Shown here in pieces: positions 8,689-28,706 of a stretch of 64,000 nt of DNA. Both the position numbers and the translations under genes were made by a program. The DNA comes from Acutalibacteraceae bacterium (GTDB lineage: Bacteria; Bacillota; Clostridia; Oscillospirales; Acutalibacteraceae): NCBI GenBank assembly GCA_045591285.1, contig JAZNSP010000012.1, positions 4,718-68,717 of the forward strand, written 5' to 3'. Every line of letters begins with the position of its first letter. Positions within the stretch are counted from its first letter, which is position 1. The notes under the pieces were generated by a model that had not been told where the DNA came from, ran no database searches, and saw only the letters and a list, made by a program, of their open reading frames with translations.

Positions 8689-9048
8689 ATGAAAAATGTG
8701 TTTGCTGTAAGAAAGCTTCTTGTGGCTGTTATGGGGTTTGTGCTGATTTTGTATTTTTTGTGTAAAACCACAAGCCATAAGATAATATTCGTTCCGTTTT
8801 TATTCTGTAGCTTCACCTCTGCAGGAAAATACCTTGGTGTGATACTTAATAAAATAAGAGCTGCTGAGATTTTTGATAAGCTGTTCAAGGTAAGCTTTTT
8901 TGTGTTCTGGTTCGGTTTTCTTATTTTTGCTGCCTTTATTTCAATTCGTGACAAGAATTACAGTATGCTGATATTTACTCTGCCCTTCTTTGCGGCAGGA
9001 ATATATTTTGTTGTAAAAAAATTCAGAAAAAAGGTAAAGGAATATTGA
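8689..9048 (+). CDS. Small integral membrane protein (3-4 TM)
   Basis: 119-aa hydrophobic ORF, translationally abutted to the next gene. Confidence 0.5.
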   Translation: MKNVFAVRKLLVAVMGFVLILYFLCKTTSHKIIFVPFLFCSFTSAGKYLGVILNKIRAAEIFDKLFKVSFFVFWFGFLIFAAFISIRDKNYSMLIFTLPFFAAGIYFVVKKFRKKVKEY

Positions 9049-9049
9049 T

Positions 9050-9544: not shown

Positions 9545-9587
9545 CATATTGTTAAGCAGGTATATCGGTTTTTTACTTACCTAAAAA

Positions 9588-9626
9588 AAGCTTCAGACAG
9601 AAAATTTTTTGTCTGAAGCTTTTTAT
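9588..9626 (+). terminator. Rho-independent terminator
   Basis: AAGCTTCAGAC...GTCTGAAGCTT 11-bp stem followed by TTTT. Confidence 0.7.
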
Positions 9627-9775
9627 ACAAAGTAAAGTATAATTAATTATATAAAGGTCTGTATAATTATTTGCAAAAAGCTTAATTTTATGGTATAATT
9701 ACAGATAATAATTTATATTGTATCAGTATAGAAGAAACTGTTCATATTAAAAATATCTTAAACAGGAGTTTATTA

Positions 9776-11296
9776 ATGAGGCATATTTTCGCATCCATAA
9801 AAGAATCATTAGTATCGGTTTTGCCGATTGCAATTATAGTTCTTATTCTTTCAGTCACCATTGTACCTATTTCGGCAGGAGTTCTTGTTCTGTTTTTATT
9901 CGGAACGATTATGTTAATTCTCGGAATGAGCTTTTTTACTGTGGGCTCAGGAATGTCAATGGAGCCTTTAGGTGACGGTATCGGTAAGTCACTAAACAAA
10001 AAAAGCAAAATTTTTATTCCTTTGATAATTTGTTTTGTTCTCGGTTTTCTTATTACTGTTTCGGAGCCTGATTTGCAGGTTCTTGCTGAGCAGGTGCCTA
10101 CCATTCCCAATTCAATGCTTATTAACTGTGTGGGTGTAGGTGTGGGAATTTTCCTCAGTATTACGTTAATCAGAAACAGAAAAGATATTCCTTTGAGAAA
10201 ACTACTCTGGGTTTTCTATATACTTATTATCGCATTGGCATTTTTTGCTCCTGACGAATTTATTCCTACTGCCTTTGACTCAGGCGGTGTTACGACGGGA
10301 CCTATTACGGTGCCCTTTATAATGGCTCTCGGTGCAGGTCTTGCTTCAAGTAAAAAAGGTAAGCTTACAGGTGAGCACAGCTTCGGTCTTGTTGCCCTTT
10401 GCAGTATAGGACCTATACTGTCGGTGCTTTTATTAAGCATTTTCTATAAGCCGACGGCAGCAACAACAGTTTACGAAATTACTGATGTTTTTACAACGAC
10501 AGAAGCCTTCAGTCACTTTACCCATGCTTTACCCATATATGCAAAAGAAGTTGCTACGGCTTTCATTCCCATTGTGATTCTTTTTGCGGCATTCCAGCTT
10601 ATAACAAGAAGATATCATATCCACAACATTTTTAAGATGTCGGTGGGATTTGTATATACTTATATAGGTCTGGTTCTGTTCTTAACCGGTGCCAATGTAG
10701 GCTTTATGCCTGCAGGCCGTCTTATCGGTGCAAAGATTGCAGAAGGTGAACTGAGTCTTTTGCTTATTCCCATCGGTATGCTTATGGGATACTTTGTTGT
10801 ATCTGCCGAGCCTGCAGTTCATTCACTTAAAAGACAGGTCAGTGAAATTACAAAGGGTGCAATATCACAGAAGTCAGTTGCTGTTGCTCTTTCAATAGGT
10901 GTTTCTGTTTCGGTGGGAATTTCAATGCTGAGAGTTCTTACGGGTATTCCTATTTTACCGTTTTTGATTGCAGGATATTTAGTTTCTTTGGTTATCAGCT
11001 TCTTTGTTCCGAATATCTATACGGGTATTGCCTTTGACTCAGGCGGAGTTGCAAGCGGACCTATGACATCAACATTTATGCTTCCTTTTGCCATGGGTGC
11101 ATGTGAAGCAATTGGCGGTAATGTAATGACTGATGCATTCGGAATTGTTGCTATGATTGCTATGGCACCGCTTATTACAATTCAGATTCTCGGTCTTCAT
11201 GAAAGAAGCAAGCGTGCGAGAAAAATCAAGCGGCTCCATGTTGAAATCAGCATGATAGATGACGATATTTTATTCTTTGACGAGGTGAACGGATAA
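9776..11296 (+). CDS. DUF1538-family polytopic membrane protein (internally duplicated)
   Basis: 506 aa with many TM segments. The motif AFDSGGVTTGPITVPF recurs as AFDSGGVASGPMTSTF in the second half. Confidence 0.65.
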   Translation: MRHIFASIKESLVSVLPIAIIVLILSVTIVPISAGVLVLFLFGTIMLILGMSFFTVGSGMSMEPLGDGIGKSLNKKSKIFIPLIICFVLGFLITVSEPDLQVLAEQVPTIPNSMLINCVGVGVGIFLSITLIRNRKDIPLRKLLWVFYILIIALAFFAPDEFIPTAFDSGGVTTGPITVPFIMALGAGLASSKKGKLTGEHSFGLVALCSIGPILSVLLLSIFYKPTAATTVYEITDVFTTTEAFSHFTHALPIYAKEVATAFIPIVILFAAFQLITRRYHIHNIFKMSVGFVYTYIGLVLFLTGANVGFMPAGRLIGAKIAEGELSLLLIPIGMLMGYFVVSAEPAVHSLKRQVSEITKGAISQKSVAVALSIGVSVSVGISMLRVLTGIPILPFLIAGYLVSLVISFFVPNIYTGIAFDSGGVASGPMTSTFMLPFAMGACEAIGGNVMTDAFGIVAMIAMAPLITIQILGLHERSKRARKIKRLHVEISMIDDDILFFDEVNG

Positions 11297-12037: not shown

Positions 12038-12453
12038 TTATTTTATATTATATCTGTTGCAGTAATTAACAACTATATTCTTAAAATGCTCGTGTCTGAA
12101 ATTGTTTTTTACGTCGCTTACGTCAATATAGAAGCCTGACATCAGATTTTGAATTATGGCTTCCGCTAAGAAGGCTTCAAATATATAGTCATCAGAGAAG
12201 GCTTCTTCAATATCTGTGTTAAGGTCAGTATTTATTCCCTTGATTGCCGCACGGTAAATCAGGTTTTCCTTACCTAAAAATTCACCTGCATTTTTAAGAC
12301 AGACTAAGCCCTTTTTTATATCCGAAACGGTTATTTTCCCTTTGTATTCTACGGTCTTTTCGTTTCCCGTTAAAATAAAATCTATTGTTGTTTCAAAAAT
12401 TTTTGCAAGGTTGGGAAGAAGGGTGATGTCGGGTAAGGCTTCTCCCGTTTCCC
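12038..12453 (-). pseudogene. 3' fragment (137 codons) of an XRE-family gene split by the mobile element
   Basis: Translates ...ETGEALPDITLLPNLAKIFETTIDFILTGNEKTVEYKGKITVSDIKKGL...NFRHEHFKNIVVNYCNRYNIK*, collinear with residues ~40-175 of the paralogue 32434-32961. There is no start codon, and homology ends at 12453. Confidence 0.85.
12443..12453. repeat. attL junction core (TCCC-G-TTTCCC)
   Basis: Imperfect direct repeat of 28583-28594. Host homology ends here, and the element arm GTACTTAAAGAT follows. Confidence 0.7.
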
Positions 12454-12520
12454 GTACTTAAAGATATTGGTTATGTATGAGTGCCTACGCCTACTTGCAT
12501 AGGCACTCATATCTTTGTTT

Positions 12521-13430
12521 TTACTCAATTTTGCCGATTAAGCGGTAGTAGATGTCAATATTTTGCTCACGCATACCGTCCACGGTGGTTGCTTCGTGAA
12601 TAACGATCTTTTCAATCAGCGTATTCAGAAGCTCCGCTGTCAGTTCGGTGGGGTTGGTATACTGTTTGAGAAGTGAAATCCAAGTCTCCGCATCGACAGT
12701 TGTTTGCTTTTCAGATTCAAGCTCGGCAGACAGCCTTTCAATCTTCTCGGTAAGCTCCTGCTGCTCGGTCTGATATTTCTGAGACATCATGTTGAAGTTG
12801 TACTCCGTGATACGACCATCCGACCAGTCCTCATACAGCTTCGCAAACTTGCGGTCAACCTCAGTTCTGCGCTTTTCGGCTCTTGTAAGCTCTGCGCTCT
12901 GCCTTTTGGCATTGGCGGCAAGCTCCTGTTCGCTTCCTTTCAGCAGCCGATGCAGAAGTTCCTTTTCATCCAACTGCGCCTGTCTCCACAACTCCTGTAT
13001 TCTTGTCAGAACATAGTGGTAGAGGTAGTCATATCGGATGTAGTGGGCAGAACATTGTTTCACCCCCTGTCCGTATTGACTGCAAGTGTAATGGCTGTAA
13101 GGCTTGCTGTTCTGTCTGTTCGTACCGAAGCGCATCGACCATCCGCAGTCCACACACTTCACCAGACCGGAGAAGATCTGCGTGGTAGCGTCCTTTTGCT
13201 GTCTGCGGCGGCTGGCGATCTGTTCCTGCACCTGTTCAAAGACTTTCTTGGAGATAATGGCTTCGTGGGTGTTCTCCACTCGGAACCATTCCTCCTGCGG
13301 CTTGCGTATCTTTTTCTTGTTCTTGTAGGAAATGTTTGTCTGTTTGTTGTGTACGCTGTTGCCGATATAGGTTTCGTCTTTTAAGATGCTCTTGACCTGT
13401 GCCAGCGTCCATGCGTAGGACTTTTCTTCC
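12521..13430 (-). pseudogene. Large serine recombinase, C-terminal part (recombinase domain, zinc ribbon, coiled coil), separated by the IS
   Basis: The frame is open up to 13430 and reads EEKSYAWTLAQVKSILKDETYIGNSVHNKQ...VKCVDCGWSMRF...CSAHYIRYDYL... plus a coiled coil. Confidence 0.85.
13426..13430. repeat. Target-site duplication CTTCC (left)
   Basis: Identical 5-mer at 14946-14950, flanking the IS ends. Confidence 0.75.
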
Positions 13431-14945
13431 TGTCAAGGGGGACATGGTTTACAGATTGTCCGAGCACATGGTTTACAACTTTCGTACAAAAAGTTGTTCC
13501 TAGATTTGGAGCCTGAGGTAAGGAAGCCACACCCTTTAGGGTGCTTGCTCTTGATAGGTTCTGAAAGAAATGCAACACTATTTTCCCGATGACGAAACAG
13601 AATTTTTAGTTCCTGAGTTCTTCGCCATCGGTAATTGTTAATTGCATTTCTTTCACGGTTCTGTCAAGAGTGGCGGCTCTTTTCTTGGATCTCCTGTTAT
13701 CAGGTATGCCCTTTTGAATTCATAAGCCCGTTTGTCGAGATTTAATTTTCCGATAATAAATTGCCTGTAATAAAGATTGATACATCCGTTTGTTGATGAT
13801 TCTCTGATTGCAATTTCTTTCCCGGCGAAGGCTTCGCTTAAGTAGTACGAACGTCCTTTATATGAAAAATATCCTGTCGATTTTACTTTATGGGGGGTAC
13901 AATTTTCAGGATATTCCCATTTGCGGATTTTGGTGCTATATTCGGTATTGCTTTTTATGTAATGCTTTGACGGTGTATCTAAATTCAATGAATGATGTGG
14001 TCTTTTGTTATTGAAAAAATCACGGTATTCATTGAATTTGCGTTCTGCATCAGTAAAATCATCAATCTTTGTGTATTTCAATAATTCTCTTTTCATTGAA
14101 CCGTTAAAACTTTCTTCTTTCCCCTGTGTCTGTGGGTGAAGTATTCTTCCGTGTAATGTCAGTATTCCCAAATCCATAAACCATACTTCAAACATGGAAT
14201 AGCCAAGACCTTGTGATGATCCCCAAGGGTGACCGTTATCACACAAAAACGAAAATGGTAAGCCAAATTCATAAAAGATGTCTTCCATAACAGGTTTTAC
14301 TGTTGCAAATCTGACATTCGGCAATGGTCTGCAACATAAATTAAATCTTGTGCAGTCATCCAAAATATTCAAAGGAAAGCATCTTTGTTTGTTTTGCAGC
14401 AGAAAATCACCTTTGAAATCAGCTTGCCACATCTCATTCGGGTAAGCTTTTTGAAACCGCTTATATGGTGTGGCAGCAAGGCTTGCTTCTCTGGTAATCA
14501 AACCGTTTCTTTTGAAAATTTCATTGATTGTGCTTGAGCAAGGAATATTCACATATCCTTCATCCTGTAACATACGATGAATTTTTACGGCACCGATAGC
14601 AGGATATTTTTTGCGGTAGTCCACAATGAAATGTTCCATTTCTACAGAAGTCTTGTTTGCGGTTTTGAACGGAGCTCTGCTTTTGTCCGACAAATCATCT
14701 TCTTGCAAAAATCGCTTTATCCATTTATCTCCTGTCGGACGGCTTATTCCATATTCTCGACACAATTCAGATTTGCTTTTTTCTTTGGATAACACTCGTT
14801 TTACAAATTCTTCTCGCATTTGTTCTACACTCTTTTCTTTCCAAGGCATACACATCTCCCTCTCGATGTTTTTTGCCTTTATTTTATCAAAAAAGTGTAA
14901 ACTATGTCCTCGGACATTTTGTAAACTATGTTATCACACTACACA
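13431..14945 (-). mobile_element. IS481-family-like insertion sequence (1515 bp)
   Basis: Ends are TGT...ACA. Imperfect ~36-bp terminal inverted repeats: ACATGGTTTACAGATTGTCCGAGCACATGGTTTACA versus the reverse complement ACATAGTTTACAAAATGTCCGAGGACATAGTTTACA. Single transposase ORF. G+C is lower than the surrounding element. Confidence 0.85.
13653..14855 (-). CDS. DDE transposase (HTH + rve integrase core), IS481-like
   Basis: 400 aa. N-terminal HTH (ELCREYGISRPTGDKWIKRF) and an rve core (MWQADFKGD..., LCDNGHPW, ...QGKEESFNGSMKRE). Confidence 0.85.
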   Translation of the reverse strand: MCMPWKEKSVEQMREEFVKRVLSKEKSKSELCREYGISRPTGDKWIKRFLQEDDLSDKSRAPFKTANKTSVEMEHFIVDYRKKYPAIGAVKIHRMLQDEGYVNIPCSSTINEIFKRNGLITREASLAATPYKRFQKAYPNEMWQADFKGDFLLQNKQRCFPLNILDDCTRFNLCCRPLPNVRFATVKPVMEDIFYEFGLPFSFLCDNGHPWGSSQGLGYSMFEVWFMDLGILTLHGRILHPQTQGKEESFNGSMKRELLKYTKIDDFTDAERKFNEYRDFFNNKRPHHSLNLDTPSKHYIKSNTEYSTKIRKWEYPENCTPHKVKSTGYFSYKGRSYYLSEAFAGKEIAIRESSTNGCINLYYRQFIIGKLNLDKRAYEFKRAYLITGDPRKEPPLLTEP

Positions 14946-15645
14946 CTTCCGGCTGTCCTTCGTAGATATGAGCAAATGTCCCATATCGCTGATAGTTCAG
15001 CCATCCGGCGGTAGGAACGTGTTCATCTACCAATACTCTTGCGATCTTGGCAGCACCCGCCCCATGATAGGCAAGGTCAAAGATTTTCTCGATAATCCAG
15101 CGTGTCTCCACATCAATCACAATGGCGTTCTTGATTTCGGGATGTCGGACATACCCAAGGGGCGCATAGGCAAAGGTGCGTTCTCCTGCGGCAAACTTTG
15201 CATGAAGTGCGGTCTTGACCTTGCGGCTGGTGTCCTTGGCAAACCATTCGTTGAACAGATTCTTGAAAGGAACGAAATCGGACAAGCCTTTCTTGGTGTC
15301 CTCGTTCTCGGATACGGCGATATATCGCACTTGCTTCTCCGGGAACTCGTATTCCAGATAGTAGCCGACCATGATGTGGTCACGTCCGAAGCGGCTGAGG
15401 TCTTTGGTCACGATGCAGTTTACTCGTCCTGCATCTACATCTGCCATCATTCGCTTGAAATTGGGTCTTTCAAACGTAGTGCCACTCCATCCGTCGTCGA
15501 TGTACTCGCCAACCACATGAAGCTCCTGTTCCTTTGCGAACTGCTGTAAAATGGTACGCTGGGTCTCGATGGAAACGCTGTCGCCATAATTCTCGTCATC
15601 ACGACTCAGTCTCATATATAGTGCTGTATTGTACGGTTGTTTCAT
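14946..15645 (-). pseudogene. Large serine recombinase, N-terminal catalytic part, separated by the IS
   Basis: ALYMRLSRDDENYGDSVSIETQ (catalytic Ser motif) ...VTKDLSRFGRD... The authentic sequence ends ...AHIYEGQPE and then reads into the IS. Removing the IS and one TSD copy gives a 1605-nt, 534-aa ORF. Confidence 0.85.
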
Positions 15646-15670
15646 TAAAAATCCTCCTGTTCGTGAAACA

Positions 15671-15719
15671 ACCCACGCTTACAATACTTTCCTATGATAC
15701 ATTATACCATAAGCGTGGG
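15671..15719. promoter_or_regulatory. Inverted repeat CCCACGCTTA/TAAGCGTGGG overlapping the recombinase promoter region
   Basis: Arms at 15672-15681 and 15710-15719. On the minus strand, TGGTATAAT (extended -10) lies between them, upstream of the recombinase RBS. The 19-mer at 15671-15689 recurs at 28534-28552 on the minus strand. Confidence 0.45.
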
Positions 15720-17939: not shown

Positions 17940-18785
17940 TTATTTTGAACTACTCGATTCTATCAACTCGAATAATTCGACTGCTTTTTTTATTTTTACA
18001 ACGTACCCAAGATTCATCATAGTTTCCATTTCAGCGACAGGAACCGCCGAAGTAGGAATATCTTTTATAATAATTTTTCCATCAACAGAAATAGTTGGTC
18101 CGGCATAAAGAACCCCTAAAAGAGAATATGAAGCACTAACTCCAAGACGTAATCCATTATCAGTTGTTTCTTTTTCAAGGCCAGTTTTTCTCAAAAAGAT
18201 AGGGGAGCCACTTGATCCCGGAAAACACGCTGCGTCAATGAGGAAAATCGGTTCTCCGTCATAATCAAGCTTTATGTTTGTTGCTGTGATACCCTTTCTG
18301 ACAACGGGTTTACAGTTATAATCATCCATGATCCCATTAGGATAACCAATCATAATGATATCCTCAATAGCGGTAAGGGAATCATAATCTTCTGGTCTAA
18401 GCAGCATTTCTTTCCCAATGCATCTATAGTACGGTTTCTTGCCTTGTTTTTGCAATTCTTCCATCTCAGAATTTATAAAAACAAAACAAATGTCAATGTC
18501 AGAATCTGGATGATAAAAACAGTTTTTTTGTAAGTCAGGGAGAGTAATTGTGAGGTGATCAGTATCTGCAGGATTGCCGTTTCCATCATCAGAAACTAAT
18601 TTAATCGTTGCAGTTGAATATCCAGAAACAACATGCTTGTTTGTCACCAACGCAAGATAATTCCCGTTTGATTTACTCTCGTAAAGCATGAAAAAGCCTG
18701 TTCCAGATGCGGCTTCAGTTGCATTTGAGCAAATAATTCGTGCGGTTGAATATACCAACTGATCGGCAATGCTATCTTTTATCAT
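17940..18785 (-). CDS. Stand-alone trypsin-like (S1/Trypsin_2-type) serine protease, no signal peptide
   Basis: Triad contexts VTNKHVV (His), DSDIDICF (Asp) and FPGSSGSPIF (Ser). The ATG at 18785 is 7 nt after GGAGG. The longer track ORF (to 18920) runs into the oriT region. Confidence 0.8.
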   Translation of the reverse strand: MIKDSIADQLVYSTARIICSNATEAASGTGFFMLYESKSNGNYLALVTNKHVVSGYSTATIKLVSDDGNGNPADTDHLTITLPDLQKNCFYHPDSDIDICFVFINSEMEELQKQGKKPYYRCIGKEMLLRPEDYDSLTAIEDIIMIGYPNGIMDDYNCKPVVRKGITATNIKLDYDGEPIFLIDAACFPGSSGSPIFLRKTGLEKETTDNGLRLGVSASYSLLGVLYAGPTISVDGKIIIKDIPTSAVPVAEMETMMNLGYVVKIKKAVELFELIESSSSK

Positions 18786-18810: not shown

Positions 18811-18968
18811 TGTGGGATAGCCGCAAAGCGGCGCAAGGGGTGTAACCCCTTGTTTGGAACAAAGTGACGCAAAACAGACAGGACTTCTATCGTCCGGGAT
18901 GTCTGCCTCGCAGAGCGCACATACAGGGCTTGCCCCTGTATAGAAGTGCGCCCTTTGTTCCAAAGGGA
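18811..18968 (+). other. Candidate oriT (MOBQ-type): multi-hairpin GC-rich region with nick-core motif
   Basis: Hairpins: GCCGC-aaa-GCGGC (18820-18832), AAGGGG-tgtaa-CCCCTT (18835-18851), CAGAC..GGAC/GTCC..GTCTG (18875-18905), GCGCAC+ATACAGGG/CCCTGTAT+GTGCGC (18915-18951) and CCCTTTG-ttc-CAAAGGG (18951-18967). AAGTGCGCCCT lies at 18944-18954, just 3' of the ATACAGGG/CCCTGTAT repeat. Confidence 0.65.
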
Positions 18969-19796
18969 TTATTCTGCTGGGATCTCCATTCCTGGCCAAT
19001 AGTTAGCCAATTCGGGAACTTGGTGTTTAACCGCCCATATAGTTTGAATAGCAATACAAAGGACTGGTGTGATGACATCGGTTATTGGGGCGTTTGCCAT
19101 TTCAACGACAGGAGAATGACCTATATCAATATGAGCCCCTCTTTTATCAGATAGGTGTTTAAGGAAATTGTACATACTGAGATCGTAATATCCAATTTTC
19201 TTCAGCATCGAGAAAATAATAGCGTTTTTCTGCGTATCAGTTGCATCTACTCTTGTATGGATTGTTGACATAGACCCTTGATACATTACATCTTTCTTTT
19301 CAAACAACGGTTCAAATATAAGTTTGTCGGCTTTTTTTAATTTGTTCAGTATGTTTTCATACACAAATTCTGGAAGCATATCGGGCAAGTCAGAAACAGT
19401 TTTATCAAACCAAGCTATATTCTGTGCAAGCCATTGTTCAACAGAAATCCATTTATCTTGTGTGGCAATCGTCAGATTAGGACGAATCATCTTCATCTTA
19501 TTATCTAACTCAATCGCCGTTCCAGTTAGAGGTGACAATTTCAAATCTGGTGCCACCTTTAACAAAACCGAATTCTGCTCACATAGCAATTTTCGAAGGG
19601 GCATTACCAATATTCGGTCGAGCATTGGTAGGTATTCTTTCCCCAATTCATCCAGTTGCGTTAAGCACAACCGAATAATATCAAACTCCGTTTCGATTTC
19701 TTTAATCATTCCTTTTCTTCCTAAATTGAATTCCATAACAAAGGATAGTTCTGGATTCATGTTGATTCTATTTGCATTTTGATCCATGGTACTCAT
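18969..19796 (-). CDS. Hypothetical 275-aa protein (mostly helical, no recognised domain)
   Basis: ORF with RBS AAGGAGA 7 nt upstream. It has its own upstream terminator and intergenic region, and G+C is low relative to the element backbone. Confidence 0.6.
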   Translation of the reverse strand: MSTMDQNANRINMNPELSFVMEFNLGRKGMIKEIETEFDIIRLCLTQLDELGKEYLPMLDRILVMPLRKLLCEQNSVLLKVAPDLKLSPLTGTAIELDNKMKMIRPNLTIATQDKWISVEQWLAQNIAWFDKTVSDLPDMLPEFVYENILNKLKKADKLIFEPLFEKKDVMYQGSMSTIHTRVDATDTQKNAIIFSMLKKIGYYDLSMYNFLKHLSDKRGAHIDIGHSPVVEMANAPITDVITPVLCIAIQTIWAVKHQVPELANYWPGMEIPAE

Positions 19797-19849
19797 CTAT
19801 ATTCTCCTTGTATTTTCATCTACAAAATAAGTTGGTGGTAAAATATAAT

Positions 19850-19872
19850 AAAGGCGACCAAAGCCGCCTTTA
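19850..19872 (-). terminator. Terminator hairpin after the four-gene operon
   Basis: AAGGCGaCC-aaa-GcCGCCTT with a T-rich tail on the minus strand. Confidence 0.5.
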
Positions 19873-19901
19873 TTATACCATATTTTTGTGAATTTTTCAA
19901 T

Positions 19902-21311
19902 TTATCGATCCTTGGTCAATTCAGTTTCAATATGACTTTTTTCATTTTTAAGCATATTGATTCTATCCAAGAGAGGTTGACGCTCTGATTCTATAGCCGC
20001 TACCCTTGCTGCTACATCATCTTGAATAGATTTTTTCTGACGCTTAATTGTTACATCAACGCTTTCAATCTGTGTCTGTAAAGAATCAATTTGTACCTGT
20101 AATGCTTTTTTCTGTTTTCCGGCAAACAACCCAAGTTTTGATTTTTCCGCAGTTAAATCATTCTGTTGTTTTTTTAACTCAGCCAACTGACTTTCCGCAG
20201 GAAGTCGCTGTGAAAGATCTTTCTTAATTTCTTCAATCCTTGCCATAAACGAAGCATCTTGACTCGTGAGCGTTCTAAGTTCAGCGTCAATAGCAGTTAA
20301 CCGAGTTTCATATTGCTGTTTTTCAGCTATATGTTCGCTCCAATATTGATCTCTGCGTTCTTTCTTTTTCTGCTGAACAATTTCATCCTTATATCGATGA
20401 ACCCGTTGGTTTATTGCTCTATCAGCATCCAGACATTTTTGATAGTTGATTTTTGTTGCCTCAAGACTATTAAAAGCTTTTGTATCTAATCTGGCAATGA
20501 CACTATATTCGCTGGTGGGTTTCTTGAACGAAGGATTATATTTGCGCACTTCAAAAATCATATTATCATAAACTCTGAGATAAGGTTGCTTATCTGGCGC
20601 AGACAATCCCGAATATATCAAATCATCCTGAGAGTAATTAGTCCATATTTGAGCATAACTACACACTGCTTCACAAGCAGAACAATATAATTCACCGACA
20701 CTCTCAATAAGCGAAGCCGATTCACTTTTAATCACAACATCCATATAACTCTCTATGTATGTGATTACTTTTGAGCCAACTTCTCTGTAGTTATAAATAA
20801 TATCGCTGTTACTTTGATAAAAATCAGTAATATCCAAATATCGTTCTTGAACTTTATCAAACCATGCAGCCATTAACCTTGTCAAATCTACTATAAAGAC
20901 TTCCTTGACTTTTTGTGATATTTCAGTTGGAATGTACGGGACAGATTGTTGATATGCCGCAACCGCCTCTCCTATACGAGGTCTTGCTAAAGTTGTTTCC
21001 CATCCTTGGCACATTCCTTTATAGAAAATGCTCTGATAATCAGTGGGATTGATTTCCAAGACCTTCAAAAAATACTGATATGCTTCTTTTGTATTTCCTG
21101 CATTGTAGGCATTGATAGCCATGTCTTTGTATGTTGCTTCTTTGTCAGAATTATCAACTTTGACAGTACCCTCAACTTGCACAACACCTTCGACCATCAT
21201 TTTTTTAGCTTCTTCAACAGAGTATTTACAACCACAGGTTTGGCATACAAATACGCCATCTTGCTTTAACAAGTCGGTGCTTCCACACATTTCACAAGTT
21301 AATTGTTTCAT
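19902..21311 (-). CDS. Zinc-ribbon / TPR-like / long coiled-coil protein (469 aa)
   Basis: N-terminal CEMCGS-x14-CQTCGC ribbon. TPR-like AINAYNAGNTKEAYQYFLKVLEINPTDYQ. The C-terminal ~170 aa is heptad-rich (QQYETRLTAIDAELRTL...LQVQIDSLQTQIESV...). Confidence 0.7.
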   Translation of the reverse strand: MKQLTCEMCGSTDLLKQDGVFVCQTCGCKYSVEEAKKMMVEGVVQVEGTVKVDNSDKEATYKDMAINAYNAGNTKEAYQYFLKVLEINPTDYQSIFYKGMCQGWETTLARPRIGEAVAAYQQSVPYIPTEISQKVKEVFIVDLTRLMAAWFDKVQERYLDITDFYQSNSDIIYNYREVGSKVITYIESYMDVVIKSESASLIESVGELYCSACEAVCSYAQIWTNYSQDDLIYSGLSAPDKQPYLRVYDNMIFEVRKYNPSFKKPTSEYSVIARLDTKAFNSLEATKINYQKCLDADRAINQRVHRYKDEIVQQKKKERRDQYWSEHIAEKQQYETRLTAIDAELRTLTSQDASFMARIEEIKKDLSQRLPAESQLAELKKQQNDLTAEKSKLGLFAGKQKKALQVQIDSLQTQIESVDVTIKRQKKSIQDDVAARVAAIESERQPLLDRINMLKNEKSHIETELTKDR

Positions 21312-21328
21312 CTATCTACTCTCCTACG

Positions 21329-22009
21329 CTATTTCAAAATTTTGCATTTTTTATTTCGCTCATCCAAAAGCGAATTAAGTTCGGTTATGATCTCCAACTT
21401 ACATGAAGTGGTTTTTAATTCTGCAGCCTTGATGGAGATTATGTTTTCCAAATCCGCTAACTGTTCGTTGCTCATAGGATCGGAATAACGGATTTTTTCA
21501 GCGAGCTGTGTAAGTGCCGTTTTTACGGCGGCATCACTTTCGTTATCTGCCAACAATTCAATATCGGCTTGCAGTTCTCGGATATAGAAAACCTTCTTCT
21601 GTACCTTTGCTTCAACTCGCTCAATTTCATTGCGCCCTGCATCGGCAGAGATCATGCACACCGCAGAAACACCGGCGATAACGGAGCAAACCACGATTGC
21701 ACTCCACGCAGGGAGTGTCGGCACGAACATGAACACGGCAAATGCAATTACTTGAATGACCGCATATACAATTCCAATGTGTACAACCGGAAAACCAAGG
21801 AACTTGCTTTTCAGCGTTTCCTCTTTACCAAGTGCAGTTTTCCAAATGCCGATCTGCACTGCAAATGCAGCAGCGGTGAACACATAAGCAATCCAGAATG
21901 TTGCTGTCTTTATCGTCGGAACAGCAAAAGCGATAATGCTGACCAGCGCAAATAAAATCCCAAGGATTACATATCCTTTTGCTTTCTTCTTCAATATGTT
22001 CACCTCCAT
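21329..22009 (-). CDS. 4-TM membrane protein with cytoplasmic helical tail (226 aa)
   Basis: Four hydrophobic helices in the first ~125 aa, then a charged helical domain. It overlaps the upstream stop by 10 nt. An alternative TTG start at 21994 lies 8 nt after GGAGG. Confidence 0.65.
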   Translation of the reverse strand: MEVNILKKKAKGYVILGILFALVSIIAFAVPTIKTATFWIAYVFTAAAFAVQIGIWKTALGKEETLKSKFLGFPVVHIGIVYAVIQVIAFAVFMFVPTLPAWSAIVVCSVIAGVSAVCMISADAGRNEIERVEAKVQKKVFYIRELQADIELLADNESDAAVKTALTQLAEKIRYSDPMSNEQLADLENIISIKAAELKTTSCKLEIITELNSLLDERNKKCKILK

Positions 22010-23091
22010 GACTTATCTTGATACGGTGTATTTTCAACACCCGTGTTTTGGAGGTATCCCACCATTTTGTCCAATGCACTCTGACATACTTTTTTGAACC
22101 AACAAGTTTCGCCAAACCACTGAACAAGGGTCGGACTGATTGCATAATAAATTCGGATAAATGCTCTGCCATACCAAGTAGCAGCAAGAGTATTATCACG
22201 GAAACGGCGTAAAGTCCACACTTCCGGACAATCATAAGAGCCATATACGCAAGTTGCGACATAACAACCACCACTACTCTGCTGCGTTGTAGATGACACA
22301 GCATTGTAAGAAGGGTCGTATTTTTGAATTTTCATAGCGTACTCGTTAATAATTTGCTGTCCCTGTTGCTTGTTCGGTAATTGACGATTACAATCCTGAT
22401 GAATTTCAACGCCTTGCTTCCATGCTTTTACACAAACATCGGTAAGTTGTCCAAACAAGTGGGGGAATCGTTGCTCGATTTTGTCGCCAACCATATAGCT
22501 GATTGTAGCAATGGTCAAACAGGTCATAGCAACTGATTTCAAATGGGAGGGAAGCTCTGTAATGGATACATTGACACCGTCAGGACTCAACACAAAATTG
22601 TGGAAACTTCCAACCAATGACATACAAGAATCAGCTACATCTTTCAGTGCAGCGATTTTTTCAGATTCTCCATTTTCTTTTTCGTCAATCATATCGAATA
22701 CAGTATCCAGACAAATTACGATTGATTGAGCAGCTTCTTGTACCTCATATTTGTGTGCCTCAGCTGCCTTATAATAAGTGCAGTAGAAGAACGCTTCCCA
22801 ACTCGACGGATCTTCGCTTAAAATCATATTATAGTATTTTGCGGCTTCGGAAACATTGCTGTTTTTTCTGAATCGACGGGCTGTTTGATATAGGTTATCA
22901 AGATTCGGTCCAGCAACATTAACAGTTGCGCCGTAAAATACATTATTATTGGTAATATTTGTCTGGTAATTATTGATTACCTTCTCTGTGATAAAAGTAG
23001 TACCACAACTTTCGCAGATACCGGCTTCTTTCGTGTCGTCAACTTGAATATTTGCACCGCATTGTGTGCATTTAGCAGGGATTAAAGCCAT
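22000..23091 (-). CDS. Zinc-ribbon protein with TPR-like region and C-terminal Cys-rich GCYVATCVYGS...LRRFRD module (363 aa)
   Basis: N-terminal CTQCGA-x14-CESCG ribbon. AAKYYNMILSEDPSSWEAFFY is TPR-like and paralogous to the N-terminus of 19902-21311. C-terminal GCYVATCVYGSYDCPEVWTLRRFRDNTL. Confidence 0.7.
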   Translation of the reverse strand: MALIPAKCTQCGANIQVDDTKEAGICESCGTTFITEKVINNYQTNITNNNVFYGATVNVAGPNLDNLYQTARRFRKNSNVSEAAKYYNMILSEDPSSWEAFFYCTYYKAAEAHKYEVQEAAQSIVICLDTVFDMIDEKENGESEKIAALKDVADSCMSLVGSFHNFVLSPDGVNVSITELPSHLKSVAMTCLTIATISYMVGDKIEQRFPHLFGQLTDVCVKAWKQGVEIHQDCNRQLPNKQQGQQIINEYAMKIQKYDPSYNAVSSTTQQSSGGCYVATCVYGSYDCPEVWTLRRFRDNTLAATWYGRAFIRIYYAISPTLVQWFGETCWFKKVCQSALDKMVGYLQNTGVENTPYQDKSWR

Positions 23092-23106
23092 AATAGAATA
23101 CCTCTC

Positions 23107-24276
23107 TTATCTCTTAGTTCCACACTTCGGACAGAATTTACCGGGCTTGATGAACTTGAAACCGCATTTTACGCAAGTGTCAGACGGTGCTTGTACTGCG
23201 CCACATTCATCACAGAAAGCTGCTCCCGGTGTCAGCTCTGCTCCACATTGGTCGCAGAATTTGTTTGCAGCAGTTTGGGGCTGAACAGCACCCATACCTG
23301 CAAAGGCATCCGAAACAACACCACCGACCATGCCGCCAACAGTACCACCAACGCCTGCCATCATACCCAAGCCAATTCCCATATTAGAGAACTGTCCGGC
23401 AGCTTCATTACGAGCTGCATCCTGCGCCACATCAAAGCCACGCTCCTGCTGATAGGTGTAGCCTTCCTGCATACGCTTGGTAGCCTGTGCCTGCGAATCA
23501 ATGACAACCTTTTGTGCTTCGGTCTGTGCATGAATCACATCGGTCTGCTGACGAAGTTTTGCTTCGGCAATATCGGCGTACTGACGGAAATGCAGTTCCT
23601 TAAATTTTTCATACTGCGAATCACCGTCCGGCTTGACGATGGTGGTAACATAAAAGCGTTTCAGATCTACGCCGTAGTCCAGAAAATCGGGAATCAAGCG
23701 CTCCTTAATATCCGCAGAGAAAGTTTCCAGGCTTTCATCAATTTCAAAAATATTGATGGCATTGGCTCGCATAGTCTGTGCGATATAGGTTTTCACTTTT
23801 GCCATCAATATACTGCGGAAATAGGTTGTAAGTTGCTGACGATCCAGCACACGTTCCGTACCAACCAATTTCACAAGCAACTTACGGGAATCATCCACGC
23901 TGAGTGACATTTCGCCGCTTGCACCAATGGACAGAGGGAACTTATAGGTAGGCTCTACATACTGAACTTTGCTGTCTGTCCCCCAGCGGATTGCCATCTG
24001 TTCAGTCTTATTGATAAAATAGACCTCACAATGGAATGGTGTTTCTCCACCTGTGGGAATGTTGATCAATCTGCGCAGGATAGGAATGTTCTGAGTCTCC
24101 AGGATGTGTCTGCCCGGACCGAACAAATCCAACGCCTGACCATTTAGAAAAAGGATAGCTTCCTGCGATTCATGCACAATCAGTTGCGTGGTTGTATTAA
24201 AATCTTCGCAAGGATGCTTCCATATGAAGGTACTATTGTCGCCTTCATACTTGATGATGTCGGCAATATTTGCCAT
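23107..24276 (-). CDS. SPFH/Band-7-like protein with Gly-rich linker and two C-terminal zinc ribbons (YdjI/COG4260-like)
   Basis: The ATG at 24276 follows GGAGGCGGAG. The N-terminus IIKYEGDNSTFIWKHP...LIVHESQEAILFLNG resembles the YdjI-type SPFH family. GMGIGLGMMAGVGGTVGGMVGG linker. Ribbons CDQCG-x10-CDECG and CVKCG-x10-CPKCG. Confidence 0.75.
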   Translation of the reverse strand: MANIADIIKYEGDNSTFIWKHPCEDFNTTTQLIVHESQEAILFLNGQALDLFGPGRHILETQNIPILRRLINIPTGGETPFHCEVYFINKTEQMAIRWGTDSKVQYVEPTYKFPLSIGASGEMSLSVDDSRKLLVKLVGTERVLDRQQLTTYFRSILMAKVKTYIAQTMRANAINIFEIDESLETFSADIKERLIPDFLDYGVDLKRFYVTTIVKPDGDSQYEKFKELHFRQYADIAEAKLRQQTDVIHAQTEAQKVVIDSQAQATKRMQEGYTYQQERGFDVAQDAARNEAAGQFSNMGIGLGMMAGVGGTVGGMVGGVVSDAFAGMGAVQPQTAANKFCDQCGAELTPGAAFCDECGAVQAPSDTCVKCGFKFIKPGKFCPKCGTKR

Positions 24277-24413
24277 AACTCCGCCTCCTTCGATTTTTTT
24301 ATTGTGTACCTTTGCAAAATACAGAAAAGTTACAATTATCGTTGAAAATGTTCGACTCAACACCTTGAAAAATCATGCATTTTGTGGTAAACTATCATGA
24401 GGTATAATTTAAT

Positions 24414-24452
24414 GCCCTAATTTGTAAAAGTACACCTTTACAAATTTAGGGC
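24414..24452. repeat. 15/16-bp inverted repeat between the resolvase gene and the SPFH operon
   Basis: GCCCTAATTTGTAAA-agtacacc-TTTACAAATTTAGGGC. Confidence 0.5.
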
Positions 24453-24461: not shown

Positions 24462-25088
<627 letters not shown>

Positions 25089-27992: not shown

Positions 27993-28257
27993 TTACACAT
28001 CCTCCGTATTGCGAAAATATAGAGGAGTTTTCATACCCCTCTATAACAGAGGGCATGAGAAGGCTCGTTTTTTTCCAATCTTTCAAAAATTTTTTGAAAT
28101 TTTTCAGATTTTTACGATTAACATCGGAATCGAAGCGAAAGGAACGATATTGTATTTATTATACAGGAAATTTGTGAATAAATCTATTGTTTCTAAAGAG
28201 GGCAAAAAAAGAAGCGGTATCCGAATCATAGCAGACTCGGATACCGCTTCAAGCGAA

Positions 28258-28503
28258 TCAATCAAGCGGCTTATATTCAGTAACCGCTTTTAGGTAGGCT
28301 TCGGGATCACCGTTCAGTACGAGATCGGCATAGGCAATAGGGTCATTATAGATGAGATAGTCAAGCTCCGACCGCTGATACATATTGTCGGCAACCTCAT
28401 TCTCAACAGCAATGGTATCAATCGCAATCATGCTCCCATCGGTGAATTTCAGTTCTACACAGCAGTTATCGAAGTTATATTCGCAGGAAATCAGCTTTTT
28501 CAT
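28258..28503 (-). CDS. Hypothetical small protein, first gene at the right end of the element
   Basis: The ATG at 28503 is 8 nt after GGAGG. MKKLISCEYNFDNCCVELKF... Confidence 0.55.
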   Translation of the reverse strand: MKKLISCEYNFDNCCVELKFTDGSMIAIDTIAVENEVADNMYQRSELDYLIYNDPIAYADLVLNGDPEAYLKAVTEYKPLD

Positions 28504-28533
28504 AGGGTTTACCTCCAAAATTGTATTGTTTGG

Positions 28534-28552
28534 AAGTAATGTAAGCGTGGGT
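28534..28552 (-). promoter_or_regulatory. Second copy of the 19-nt motif ACCCACGCTTACAWTACTT
   Basis: The minus strand reads ACCCACGCTTACATTACTT, an 18/19 match to 15671-15689 (plus strand). It lies ~30 nt upstream of the first backbone gene. Confidence 0.4.
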
Positions 28553-28568
28553 TTTTAGTGTGGTATCT

Positions 28569-28706
28569 TTAAGTTTGGGAAATCCCTCTTTCCCATTTGC
28601 TTACAGCCTGAAAGGAAACTCCCAGTCTTTCACCTAAGTCACTTTGTGTAAGTCCTTTTTCTTTTCTTAAAGAAGCAATATGCTCACCGATTTTTTCTGT
28701 ATTCAT
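28569..28706 (-). pseudogene. 5' fragment (HTH) of the XRE-family gene split by the mobile element
   Basis: MNTEKIGEHIASLRKEKGLTQSDLGERLGVSFQAVSKWE, then reads into the element (RGISQT*). It aligns with the N-terminus of 32434-32961. Confidence 0.85.
28583..28594. repeat. attR junction core (TCCC-TC-TTTCCC)
   Basis: Imperfect direct repeat of 12443-12453. Host XRE homology resumes at ATTTGCTTACAGCC. Confidence 0.7.

What the first reader, a model, noticed from the sequence alone, without database searches (positions are those of the whole stretch)
19902..24276. Tightly coupled four-gene membrane-associated cassette in the predicted leading region: best candidate for an undescribed system
The minus-strand gene order is:
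- an SPFH/Band-7-like protein with a Gly-rich linker and two CxxC-x10-CxxC ribbons (23107-24276);
- a zinc-ribbon/TPR-like protein ending in a Cys-rich GCYVATCVYGS...LRRFRD module (22000-23091);
- a 4-TM protein with a helical tail (21329-22009);
- a zinc-ribbon/TPR-like protein with a ~170-aa coiled coil (19902-21311).
Spacings between genes are 15 nt, a 10-nt overlap and 17 nt, followed by a terminator, so this is one operon. The two ribbon proteins share a paralogous N-terminal module (CxxC-x14-CxxC plus TPR-like). The first protein resembles the B. subtilis YdjI class, an SPFH protein of the pspA-ydjGHI envelope-stress operon. Here, however, there is no PspA, the partners differ and the cassette is cargo on a mobilizable element. 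All genes point toward the putative oriT, the orientation described for early-expressed leading-region genes of conjugative plasmids. The cassette could be a membrane-acting abortive-infection or defence module, an anti-defence or establishment module, or a portable envelope-stress kit.
Basis: partly seen in the sequence, partly recalled or inferred. Interest (0 to 1): 0.8.

Follow-up and report, generated by a model that had tools for sequence, protein, structure and literature searches.

The report
Phase-variable SPFH membrane gene cassette
The four genes are a real operon: a rare two-adaptor version of a widespread, undescribed three-part membrane module of gut bacteria, which an adjacent DNA invertase switches on and off by flipping a 120-bp promoter (off in this window); what the module does is still unknown.

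Summary
Four tightly packed minus-strand genes (19902-24276) form one operon: a YdjI-type SPFH protein, a zinc-ribbon/TPR/CFI-box protein, a 4-TM protein and a zinc-ribbon/TPR/coiled-coil protein.

Comparison with about 125 related loci shows the conserved unit has three genes: SPFH, 4-TM, and one zinc-ribbon/TPR adaptor whose C-terminal part is swapped between otherwise 90-96% identical cassettes. The window carries a recurrent two-adaptor variant.

The "resolvase" upstream (24462-25061) is a DNA invertase. The 120 bp between it and the SPFH gene (24310-24429, cores GTGTAC/GTACAC) is an invertible promoter. Metagenome contigs with identical flanks and an intact invertase carry it in both orientations. 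The window copy is OFF.

However, most cassettes elsewhere lie outside such elements.

No protein matches a known defence family and none has an enzymatic domain. Defence-type genes are frequent neighbours.

Best reading, at about 0.4: a costly, phase-variable membrane-acting defence or exclusion module. The main rival is an accessory envelope-stress module.

The parts
24462..25061 (-). Small serine recombinase acting as the DNA invertase of the switch (199 aa)
   Evidence: Pfam Resolvase 1.4e-31. PHROG 'DNA invertase' 3.2e-55. PDB relatives are Sin/Bin3, gamma-delta resolvase and Gin. It sits immediately upstream of SPFH in 15 of 83 surveyed loci. The exact protein occurs on 165 contigs.
24304..24435 (.). 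Invertible promoter switch. IR cores are GTGTAC (24430-24435) and GTACAC (24304-24309), both read on the minus strand, bounding a 120-bp invertible segment (24310-24429). In the window the internal promoter (TTGAAA-17-TAAACT with an upstream TG, + strand 24365-24393) points away from the operon, so the switch is OFF.
   Evidence: L109 versus L110: flanks 100% identical; inner 120 bp 27% identical as read and 98% identical when inverted; the invertase is intact in both. ON copies carry TTGAAA-17-TACAAT or TATAAT reading into SPFH. An IR pair with the GTGTAC/GTACAC core, 90-130 bp apart, is kept in divergent invertase-SPFH loci.
23107..24276 (-). P1: soluble YdjI/SamI-type SPFH protein with a Gly/Met-rich segment and a C-terminal double zinc ribbon
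   Evidence: Band_7_1 7.5e-36 and DZR 1.1e-8. It is 90-96% identical in many gut contigs. Its 90%-identity cluster has 941 members.
22000..23091 (-). P2: zinc ribbon, linker, TPR-like solenoid and CFI-box C-terminal helical domain (second adaptor; an insertion relative to the three-gene form)
   Evidence: NF041770 1.6e-21. AlphaFold pLDDT 82; Foldseek returns TPR hits only. More than 7000 relatives. Absent from L121, whose flanks are 91-96% identical.
21329..22009 (-). P3: 4-TM membrane protein with a cytoplasmic helical tail of about 100 aa; presumed membrane anchor or effector
   Evidence: Four hydrophobic segments. No Pfam, NCBIfam, PADLOC or PHROG family. More than 3100 relatives. Lies between SPFH and the adaptor in 48 loci.
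19902..21311 (-). P4: zinc ribbon, linker, TPR/SNAP-like solenoid and four long helices carrying the conserved YWxEH and LGxFxGKxKK motifs (swappable adaptor)
   Evidence: Alignment A1. AlphaFold pLDDT 88. Foldseek gives only TPR/SNAP hits, none at E<1e-3. In loci where P1 and P3 are 90-96% identical to the window's, the adaptor is only 28-36% identical.
19844..19877 (-). Intrinsic terminator after P4
   Evidence: 13-bp stem followed by a T-run.
18969..19796 (-). 275-aa ORF of unknown family in the variable slot between the adaptor gene and the oriT block; whether it belongs to the module is uncertain
   Evidence: No family hit. The equivalent slot holds unrelated small ORFs in L003, L092, L097 and L121. 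It has its own promoter-like site at 19900-19872.
18814..18973 (+). Conserved backbone block holding the predicted MOBQ-type oriT: IR at 18920-18943, then AAGTGCGCCCT at 18944-18954 on the + strand
   Evidence: Single match in the window, 0.03 expected by chance. Block conserved, with hairpins that vary while keeping their pairing, in L003, L006, L038, L092, L097 and L121. Consensus taken from PMC3832669 and PMC10333310.
16064..17548 (-). MobA/MobL relaxase of the carrier element (context)
   Evidence: PF03389 5.7e-91.
17940..18785 (-). Trypsin-like peptidase matching PADLOC candidate defence family PDC-S45 (neighbouring cargo; context)
   Evidence: PDC-S45 1.6e-97 over the full length. Trypsin_2 4.8e-9.

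Best explanation
The locus is a horizontally mobile, phase-variable membrane module.

Shown:
- A soluble YdjI-type SPFH protein, a 4-TM protein and one or two zinc-ribbon/TPR adaptors are co-transcribed.
- The SPFH and 4-TM genes form a conserved chassis. The C-terminal three quarters of the adaptor is exchanged by recombination between otherwise near-identical cassettes.
- Transcription depends on a 120-bp promoter segment that the adjacent serine invertase flips between GTGTAC/GTACAC inverted repeats. Both states exist in nature. The window is OFF, and lineages that lost the invertase are fixed ON.

Inferred:
- By analogy with B. subtilis YdjG/H-YdjI, the 4-TM protein anchors an oligomeric SPFH scaffold at the inner face of the membrane.
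- The conserved ribbon-plus-linker of the adaptors docks onto this chassis.
- The variable TPR, coiled-coil or CFI-box part recognises a changing ligand.

Most likely function: a costly membrane-acting defence or exclusion system against phages or other invading DNA. The adaptor would be the sensor, and the SPFH/4-TM complex would alter membrane integrity or block entry. Bet-hedging by promoter inversion would limit the cost.
For: - Operon anatomy.
- Co-occurrence: SPFH in 58 and the 4-TM gene in 48 of 83 loci seeded on P4.
- Chassis versus variable adaptor: P1 is 95-96% and P3 77-90% identical while the adaptor is 28-36% identical and of different length or type in L003, L038, L092-101. Breakpoints lie just after the ribbon-coding 170 nt and at the conserved downstream block.
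- Inverton. Most copies with an intact invertase are OFF (window, L097-101, L108, L110, L114, L116-118, L121, L123-125). ON copies are L109 and L111, plus L112, whose invertase gene is cut by the contig end.
- Conflict-type context: PDC-S45 next door in the window; a RES-domain protein in the same slot in L121; type III R-M plus Abi_C and AIPR/Z1/DUF4420 next to the locked-ON copies; AAA_14-DUF4143 (PDC-S01) in L097-101 and L001; a zinc-ribbon/TPR paralogue fused to TIR directly downstream in L001. LmuA, MADS, NERD and TIR hits appear among 148 immediate neighbours.
- Carriage on mobilizable transposons, a Tn916-type element and a Butyrivibrio plasmid.
- Anchoring logic taken from PMC8581546.
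Against: - No protein matches any PADLOC (2023) defence model or any PHROG.
- No nuclease, NTPase, protease or other enzymatic effector is present. Structure searches give only TPR or coiled-coil folds.
- Most immediate neighbours in the 80 GTDB loci are housekeeping or unknown genes, so defence enrichment is modest and was not formally tested.
- P4-type and P2-type adaptors also occur alone in core chromosomal contexts.
- The only experimentally studied relative of P1 acts in envelope stress, not defence.
- Promoter activity, invertase activity and protein contacts are all inferred from sequence.
Confidence: 0.4

Rival explanations
1. Accessory envelope-stress or membrane-homeostasis module. 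Like YdjGHI/SamGHI, it would assemble an SPFH scaffold at the membrane to stabilise it or signal damage from bile, antimicrobials or pH. The TPR/coiled-coil adaptors would take the place of PspA or recruit other repair factors. It would have no specific role in genetic conflict.
For: P1 has the domain architecture of YdjI: Band_7_1, a low-complexity segment and a C-terminal zinc finger (PMC8581546; PMC11237479). YdjI needs two membrane partners for localisation and affects membrane fluidity and stress signalling. All four proteins are scaffolding, membrane or helical proteins without enzymatic domains. Many cassettes and stand-alone adaptors sit among housekeeping genes.
Against: No PspA is present in the operon. 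A rough tblastn with E. coli PspA found none in the window or in 128 loci. The partners share no domain with YdjG (NTF2-like) or YdjH (TPM). Wholesale swapping of the adaptor on a 95%-identical chassis, a predominantly OFF phase switch, and defence-type neighbours are not expected for a plain stress kit.
Confidence: 0.3
2. Leading-region establishment or anti-defence module. The cassette would be expressed early in the recipient after mobilisation, to protect the incoming element or buffer conjugation-induced envelope stress.
For: The MOBQ oriT core lies on the + strand at 18944-18954 (consensus). The cassette therefore lies 1-5.4 kb 3' of the predicted nick, and the transferred strand is the template for all four genes. 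The synteny invertase-cassette-oriT block-Mob is kept in L003, L121-125.
Against: Only 4 of 83 surveyed loci have a relaxase nearby. The cassette also occurs in plain chromosomal sites, on a Tn916-type element and next to R-M systems. Expression is governed by a double-stranded invertible promoter that is usually OFF, not by a constitutive or single-strand promoter. There is no similarity to known anti-defence proteins. The nick position and transfer polarity are inferred from RSF1010-type systems, not tested.
Confidence: 0.1
3. Phase-variable modifier of cell-surface or membrane organisation serving host or niche adaptation (secretion, vesicles, adhesion, immune evasion), as for most gut invertons. 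Any effect on phages would be indirect.
For: Invertible promoters in gut bacteria classically control surface architecture (papers listed). Loss of SamI alters secretion, biofilm formation and motility in B. subtilis. The CFI-box and coiled-coil parts are highly conserved, non-enzymatic membrane-proximal modules.
Against: All proteins except the 4-TM protein are predicted to be cytoplasmic: they carry zinc ribbons and no signal peptides. Nothing in the operon is surface-exposed or a glycosyltransferase. There is no direct evidence.
Confidence: 0.15

Closest known systems
B. subtilis pspA-ydjGHI (samGHI) envelope-stress operon
   Same: P1 has the same architecture as YdjI/SamI: a soluble Band_7_1 SPFH domain, a low-complexity segment and a C-terminal zinc ribbon. 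Both are encoded with membrane proteins and a zinc-ribbon protein, and the SPFH protein presumably depends on them for membrane recruitment.
   Different: There is no PspA. P2 and P4 are single-ribbon TPR proteins rather than 2xZnR-NTF2-TM (YdjG). P3 is a 4-TM protein rather than a TPM-domain protein (YdjH). The gene order differs. The cassette is mobile, its adaptor is swapped between copies, and it is driven by an invertible promoter rather than sigma-W.
SPFH-NfeD operons (QmcA/YbbJ, YqiK/YqiJ, stomatin-STOPP)
   Same: An SPFH protein is encoded next to a small multi-pass membrane partner.
   Different: P3 has no NfeD/OB domain (no PF01957 hit). P1 lacks an N-terminal membrane anchor. NfeD operons have no zinc-ribbon/TPR component.
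Invertase-controlled invertible promoters (Hin/hix in Salmonella; gut invertons; C. difficile RecV switches such as cwpV)
   Same: A short promoter-bearing segment is flanked by inverted repeats next to a small serine recombinase, both orientations occur in natural populations, and the downstream operon is ON or OFF accordingly.
   Different: The regulated genes are a cytoplasmic/membrane SPFH module rather than flagellin, a capsule, fimbriae or a cell-wall protein. The GTGTAC core sites are, as far as the searched literature shows, undescribed. Enhancer or Fis dependence is unknown.
Membrane-acting abortive-infection or defence systems with a sensor and a TM effector (RexAB, Kiwa KwaAB, TM effectors of CBASS/Pycsar)
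   Same: A multi-pass membrane protein is encoded with soluble partners, without a nuclease. The loci are mobile, patchily distributed and sit near R-M and Abi genes, and a specificity-like component varies.
   Different: There is no sequence or profile similarity. An SPFH scaffold is not part of any listed system. No experimental evidence of protection exists.
Tn4451-like and other mobilizable transposons of Clostridia with a large serine recombinase (DUF4368) and a Mob relaxase
   Same: The carrier element has a terminal large serine recombinase, a MobA/MobL relaxase with a DUF3847 partner in relatives, an oriT, a small resolvase-like gene and a cargo slot.
   Different: The small recombinase here acts on a promoter switch. 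The cargo is the SPFH cassette plus defence-type genes rather than an antibiotic-resistance gene. The window copy has its integrase split by an IS.

Membership tests
YdjI/SamI-type SPFH protein (Pfam PF13421 Band_7_1, COG4260 class) | Band_7_1 SPFH domain above the gathering threshold | tested here: met
   124.2 bits against a cut-off of 24, E 7.5e-36.
YdjI/SamI-type SPFH protein (Pfam PF13421 Band_7_1, COG4260 class) | No membrane anchor of its own; a low-complexity segment and a C-terminal zinc finger | tested here: met
   DZR 1.1e-8 at aa 341-386. Gly/Met-rich segment at aa 300-330. No classical TM in a crude hydropathy scan. Description of YdjI from PMC8581546.
pspA-ydjGHI / samGHI system | PspA (ESCRT-III-like) encoded in the operon | tested here: not met
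   No PspA_IM30 hit for any of the four proteins at E<=0.1. A rough tblastn with E. coli PspA found nothing in the window or the loci.
pspA-ydjGHI / samGHI system | Partners are YdjG (two ZnR + NTF2-like + TM) and YdjH (TPM domain membrane protein) | tested here: not met
   No TPM or NTF2-like hits. P2 and P4 are single-ribbon TPR proteins and P3 is a 4-TM protein. Definitions from PMC11237479.
SPFH-NfeD pair | NfeD-family partner with a C-terminal OB domain | tested here: not met
   P3 has no NfeD hit in Pfam or NCBIfam.
CFI-box-CTERM domain proteins (NCBIfam NF041770) | C-terminal domain of about 70 aa with the Cys-[FY]-[IV]-A-T motif, scoring above the cut-off | tested here: met
   P2 aa 276-344: 75.9 bits against a cut-off of 40. 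Near-invariant across 33 relatives.
Known anti-phage defence systems (PADLOC-DB v2.0.0) | Profile match of at least one component to a listed system | tested here: not met
   Only chance-level coiled-coil or ribbon hits at E>=0.0046.
Invertible promoter (inverton) with a cognate serine invertase | Segment bounded by inverted repeats next to a serine recombinase gene | tested here: met
   GTGTAC...GTACAC cores 120 bp apart, directly downstream of the recombinase.
Invertible promoter (inverton) with a cognate serine invertase | Both orientations found between identical flanks in natural populations | tested here: met
   L109 and L111 (ON) versus L108, L110 and L117 (OFF). Flanks 100% identical; inner segment 98% identical only after inversion.
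Invertible promoter (inverton) with a cognate serine invertase | The segment carries the promoter of the downstream operon, and orientation sets expression | tested here: inconclusive
   Near-consensus -35/-10 inside, reading into SPFH in ON copies, with no room for another promoter between the right repeat and the RBS. No transcription data.
Invertible promoter (inverton) with a cognate serine invertase | The adjacent recombinase catalyses the inversion | not testable with these tools
   Only correlative evidence: copies whose invertase is lost or reduced to a remnant are all ON (L092-96, L119; probably L107 and L120).
MOBQ-type mobilizable element | MobA/MobL relaxase plus an oriT with an IR followed by TAAGTGCGCCCT | tested here: met
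   PF03389 5.7e-91. IR plus AAGTGCGCCCT at 18920-18954, unique in the window. Consensus.
Leading-region genes of conjugative or mobilizable DNA | Located just 3' of nic on the transferred strand, with that strand as the template | tested here: met
   Follows from the oriT strand and RSF1010-type polarity (established knowledge, not tested here). Cassette coordinates.
Leading-region genes of conjugative or mobilizable DNA | Early expression from single-strand promoters, or similarity to known establishment or anti-defence genes | not tested
   No Frpo-type search was done, and no family hit suggests such functions.

The most novel reading that the evidence does not exclude
A new class of anti-phage or anti-invader system, abundant in the gut microbiome. 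An SPFH cage with a 4-TM partner would be the membrane effector, interchangeable zinc-ribbon/TPR proteins the sensors, and the whole module would be kept mostly silent and switched on stochastically by a dedicated invertase. This would be the first defence role for a bacterial SPFH protein.
Probability: 0.3. Interest if true: 0.85.

Novelty: new variant of a known kind. Interest (0 to 1): 0.62.

Why it matters
Bacterial SPFH proteins are ubiquitous, but their functions remain poorly understood. This is a compact, very abundant SPFH module: thousands of relatives in gut and rumen metagenomes, and a single 90%-identity cluster with 941 members. It comes with natural ON, OFF and locked-ON alleles, an exchangeable partner that points to a recognition function, and a cultured plasmid-borne copy. 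Together these make its function directly testable.

If it proves to be a defence or exclusion system, it would add a membrane-scaffold mechanism to bacterial immunity. It would also add a non-surface target to the repertoire of gut invertons. If it proves to be a stress module, it would show that PspA-independent YdjI-type systems spread on mobile elements under phase control.

Tried and rejected
- DNA similarity of the cassette to sequenced plasmids and phages: none.
- tblastn with P3: one plasmid hit (Butyrivibrio pNP21) and no phage hit.
- Rfam and tRNA scans of the window: nothing.
- PADLOC and PHROG on the four proteins: nothing meaningful.
- Hope of a PspA/ESCRT-III-like or other informative fold in the P4 helices or the P2 CFI-box: Foldseek against the PDB gave only TPR, SNAP or designed-helix hits. 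A profile search against PDB sequences gave only TPR and generic coiled coils.
- P3 against PDB sequences: only non-significant matches to NavAb pore domains (E>=0.07), not used.
- Idea that the adaptor C-termini are a panel of enzymatic effectors: rejected. Apart from one TIR fusion, the 74 proteins scanned showed only TPR and ribbon families.
- Idea that the small recombinase mobilises the cassette as a unit: no flanking repeats were found around the cassette, whereas the intergenic switch explains the association.
- Viral contigs: only 8 relatives among 2.9 million contigs, so this is not a typical phage gene.
- Literature searches for SPFH with defence, for CFI-box, for PF13421, and for SPFH with invertible promoters: no description of this cassette.

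Full report
**1. Observation.**

- P1, 23107-24276, 389 aa. It starts at an ATG preceded by GGAGG.
- P2, 22000-23091, 363 aa.
- P3, 21329-22009, 226 aa.
- P4, 19902-21311, 469 aa.

The gaps are 15 nt, a 10-nt overlap and 17 nt. A 13-bp hairpin with a T-run follows P4 at 19844-19877.

Domain assignments:
- P1 is a Band_7_1 SPFH protein (7.5e-36). It has a Gly/Met-rich segment and a double zinc ribbon with two CxxC-x10-CxxC motifs.
- P2 ends in a CFI-box-CTERM domain (NF041770, 75.9 bits against a cut-off of 40).
- P3 has four hydrophobic segments plus a helical tail and belongs to no family.
- P4 has weak TPR matches.

AlphaFold models were built on family alignments.
- P4 (pLDDT 88): a three-stranded ribbon, a disordered linker, a TPR/SNAP-like solenoid (aa 55-256) and four long helices (aa 283-466).
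- P2 (pLDDT 82): the same ribbon, linker and solenoid, followed by a four-helix CFI-box.
- Foldseek against the PDB finds only TPR-type folds for both.

The P2/P4 N-terminal paralogy is real. The pairwise match is E 1e-4, and the two share one alignment with invariant Cys columns. One small correction: the ribbon spacer is 14 residues in P2 and 13 in P4.

**2. The real unit is three genes plus a switch.**

P4 has more than 3100 relatives, P3 more than 3100 and P2 more than 7000 in public protein data. I fetched 80 loci from GTDB species representatives through the P4 family, added three loci from contig look-ups, and clustered all ORFs.
- An SPFH gene lies just upstream of the zinc-ribbon/TPR gene in 58 loci.
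- A P3-type 4-TM gene lies between them in 48 loci. It comes in a long form of about 222 aa and a short form of about 140 aa.
- The next most frequent neighbour is a small serine recombinase immediately upstream of SPFH, in 15 loci.
- Everything else in the flanks is non-conserved.

Hosts are mostly gut and rumen Clostridia. Bacilli, Coriobacteriia, Bacteroidota and Lentisphaeria also occur.

The third gene is always ribbon, linker and TPR, but its C-terminal part varies. It can be a coiled coil with the YWxEH and LGxFxGKxKK motifs (P4-type), a CFI-box (P2-type), or other forms of 345-688 aa. Pfam sees only TPR and ribbon families in 74 such proteins. The one exception is a TIR fusion in L001.

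The variation is modular. Loci whose P1 is 95-96% and P3 77-90% identical to the window's carry adaptors that are only 28-36% identical, of different length and type (L003, L038, L092-101). At the DNA level, similarity stops about 170 nt into the adaptor gene. It resumes at a conserved block of about 160 nt downstream, at window 18814-18973.

The two-adaptor form in the window is a recurrent variant.
- L121-124 carry P3 and P4 at 96% nucleotide identity, with P2 cleanly absent.
- L125-127 carry the four-gene order with P2 at 90% identity or more.
- L001 carries a distant four-gene version on a Tn916-type element.
- P4-type and P2-type proteins also occur alone among housekeeping genes.

**3. 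The invertible promoter.**

The window was compared with L092, whose P1 is 96% identical. The 120 bp between the recombinase stop and the SPFH ribosome-binding site is present in L092 in the opposite orientation. The segment is bounded by GTGTAC (window 24430-24435) and GTACAC (24304-24309), both read on the minus strand, within longer imperfect inverted repeats.

Inside it is a sigma-70-type promoter.
- In ON copies it is TTGAAA-17-TATAAT or TTGAAA-17-TACAAT and reads into SPFH. Only about 30 nt lie between the right repeat and the RBS, which leaves no room for another promoter.
- In the window it is TTGAAA-17-TAAACT with an upstream TG. It sits on the + strand at 24365-24393 and points away from the operon.

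A scan of metagenome contigs with a 25-nt motif from the segment returned 14 loci. Among those with an intact recombinase (97-99% identical to the window's), both orientations occur.
- L109 and L111 are ON.
- L108, L110, L114 and L116-118 are OFF.
- L109 and L110 have 100% identical flanks. Their inner 120 bp is 27% identical as read and 98% identical after inversion.

Copies in which the recombinase is lost or reduced to a 3' remnant are all ON (L092-96, L119; probably L107 and L120).

Divergent recombinase-SPFH loci, with recombinases 54-83% identical, keep an inverted-repeat pair with the same GTGTAC/GTACAC core 90-130 bp apart. Promoter-like hexamers inside them face either way. L125 has the same switch, OFF.

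The recombinase matches the PHROG 'DNA invertase' family at 3e-55. Its relatives in the PDB are Sin/Bin3, gamma-delta resolvase and Gin.

In the OFF state, the left site extends to a perfect hairpin with 16-nt arms right after the recombinase stop codon. This may terminate read-through, but that is an inference. Most assembled copies with an intact invertase are OFF. That pattern suggests expression is costly.

**4. Carrier element and the 'leading region'.**

The cassette lies in an element of about 16 kb. Its approximate ends are inverted repeats at 12395-12466 and 28069-28582. Reading along the minus strand, its genes are:
- a sigma-like protein;
- an HTH_17/Xis-like protein;
- the invertase;
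- the cassette;
- a 275-aa ORF;
- a trypsin-like peptidase;
- a MobA/MobL relaxase;
- a large serine recombinase with DUF4368, split by an IS (rve, 13653-14855).

The same backbone is intact in L003 and L121-125.

The conserved 160-nt block contains, on the + strand, an inverted repeat (18920-18943) immediately followed by AAGTGCGCCCT (18944-18954). This is the only match in the window, with 0.03 expected by chance. It fits the MOBQ oriT consensus NWACCNNTAAGTGCGCCCTYNN (PMC3832669) and the Gram-positive variant (PMC10333310). The hairpins in the block vary between loci while keeping their pairing.

RSF1010-type polarity is established knowledge and was not tested here. Under it, the inverted repeat lies 5' of the nick and enters last, so the + strand is transferred starting at about 18952. 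The 275-aa ORF and then P4, P3, P2 and P1 enter first, and the transferred strand is the template for all of them. The relaxase gene enters last.

It does not generalise. Only 4 of 83 surveyed loci have a relaxase nearby. The close relatives L092-101 are chromosomal islands that retain the oriT block but have no Mob gene.

**5. Context bearing on function.**

No component matches PADLOC. Neighbours of close relatives, however, are often conflict genes:
- The window's peptidase matches candidate family PDC-S45 over its full length (1.6e-97).
- L121 has a RES-domain protein in that slot.
- The locked-ON copies sit next to a type III R-M system with Abi_C, and in L093 also next to AIPR/Z1/DUF4420.
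- L097-101 and L001 have AAA_14-DUF4143 (PDC-S01).
- L001 has a ribbon/TPR paralogue fused to TIR directly downstream.

Among 148 immediate neighbours in the GTDB loci, most are housekeeping or unknown genes. There are a few LmuA, MADS, NERD, TIR and PDC hits. This is a modest enrichment that I could not test formally.

Phage carriage is rare: 8 relatives among 2.9 million viral contigs and none in GenBank phages. A complete plasmid of a cultured strain, Butyrivibrio fibrisolvens D1 pNP21, carries the three-gene cassette next to YoeB/RelB, an ArdC-like gene and hsdS.

**6. Comparison with known systems.**

The only studied relative is B. subtilis YdjI/SamI. It is a soluble SPFH protein that needs the membrane proteins YdjG and YdjH to reach the membrane, and it recruits PspA (PMC8581546; bioRxiv 10.64898/2026.02.06.704340). 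P1 shares its architecture.

The system-level features are not met:
- no PspA;
- no TPM-domain YdjH;
- no NTF2-like YdjG.

The cassette is also not an SPFH-NfeD pair.

The switch is a textbook serine-invertase inverton, but with an unusual target. Full-text searches found no paper that links SPFH genes to invertons or describes this cassette.

**7. Verdict.**

Shown:
- the operon;
- the three-part conserved module with a swappable adaptor;
- natural inversion of the promoter segment;
- the mobilizable carrier, with the cassette on the leading side of a MOBQ-type oriT.

Inferred:
- P3 anchors an SPFH scaffold;
- the adaptors dock through their conserved ribbon and linker;
- the variable part recognises something that changes.

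The function is undecided. My estimates are:
- about 0.4 for a costly, phase-variable membrane-acting defence or exclusion module. The grounds are the variable partner, the mostly-OFF switch, carriage on mobile elements and conflict-type neighbours.
- about 0.3 for an accessory envelope-stress module;
- about 0.1 for a conjugative establishment role;
- about 0.15 for another membrane or surface adaptation.

I classify it as a new variant of a known kind (an SPFH operon with membrane partners). It is of clear interest because it is abundant, undescribed and comes with natural genetic switches that make it testable.

Noticed in passing
window 18814-18973 (oriT core 18920-18954, + strand): A conserved structured block of about 160 nt with a MOBQ-type oriT (an inverted repeat followed by AAGTGCGCCCT), a second hairpin that varies while keeping its pairing, and a terminator-like stem. 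It is retained even in chromosomal islands that have lost the relaxase (L092, L097).
   Followed up: partly
window 17940-18785 (-) and 18969-19796 (-): A trypsin-like peptidase matching PADLOC candidate defence family PDC-S45 (1.6e-97) and PHROG 7688. It is preceded by a 275-aa ORF with no family. Together they may be a separate two-gene defence candidate flanking the oriT.
   Followed up: partly
window 12521-15645 (-), IS at about 13400-14900: The element's large serine recombinase (Resolvase N-terminal part at 14926-15645; zinc-ribbon/DUF4368 C-terminal part at 12521-13279) is split by an IS with an rve-type transposase (13653-14855). This copy probably cannot excise on its own.
   Followed up: partly
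window 12395-12466 and 28069-28582; also 15667-15701 / 28522-28556: Imperfect inverted repeats (19-35 nt, 80-89% complementary) that may mark the ends of the mobilizable element of about 16 kb.
   Followed up: no
L001 11472-13889: A protein with the same N-terminal zinc ribbon and TPRs fused to a TIR_2 domain lies directly downstream of a four-gene cassette on a Tn916-type element. It is the only enzymatic, effector-like fusion seen in the adaptor family.
   Followed up: partly
L069-L072, L076: A Bacteroidota version of the cassette (SPFH 367 aa, 125-aa 4-TM protein, CFI-box adaptor 369 aa, plus two conserved downstream genes of 263 and 213 aa). BLAST statistics are identical across bins labelled Bacteroides muris, Muribaculaceae, Odoribacter and Saccharibacteria. 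This suggests very recent transfer or binning carry-over.
   Followed up: no
L128 (Butyrivibrio fibrisolvens D1 plasmid pNP21, NZ_CP146965.1) 6700-10053: A complete 20.5-kb plasmid of a cultured rumen strain carries the three-gene cassette without the GTGTAC switch, next to YoeB/RelB, an ArdC-like gene and hsdS. It is a possible experimental handle.
   Followed up: partly
L006, L018, L022, L037, L050, L056, L066, L067, L074 (between the 4-TM and adaptor genes): A recurrent small ORF of 77-90 aa (cluster c4) lies between the 4-TM gene and the adaptor gene in nine loci. It is absent from the window, and I did not check whether it is a real gene.
   Followed up: no
window 24410-24452: In the OFF orientation the left recombination site extends to a perfect hairpin with 16-nt arms right after the invertase stop codon. 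In ON copies only about 8 nt can pair. It may act as an orientation-dependent terminator.
   Followed up: no
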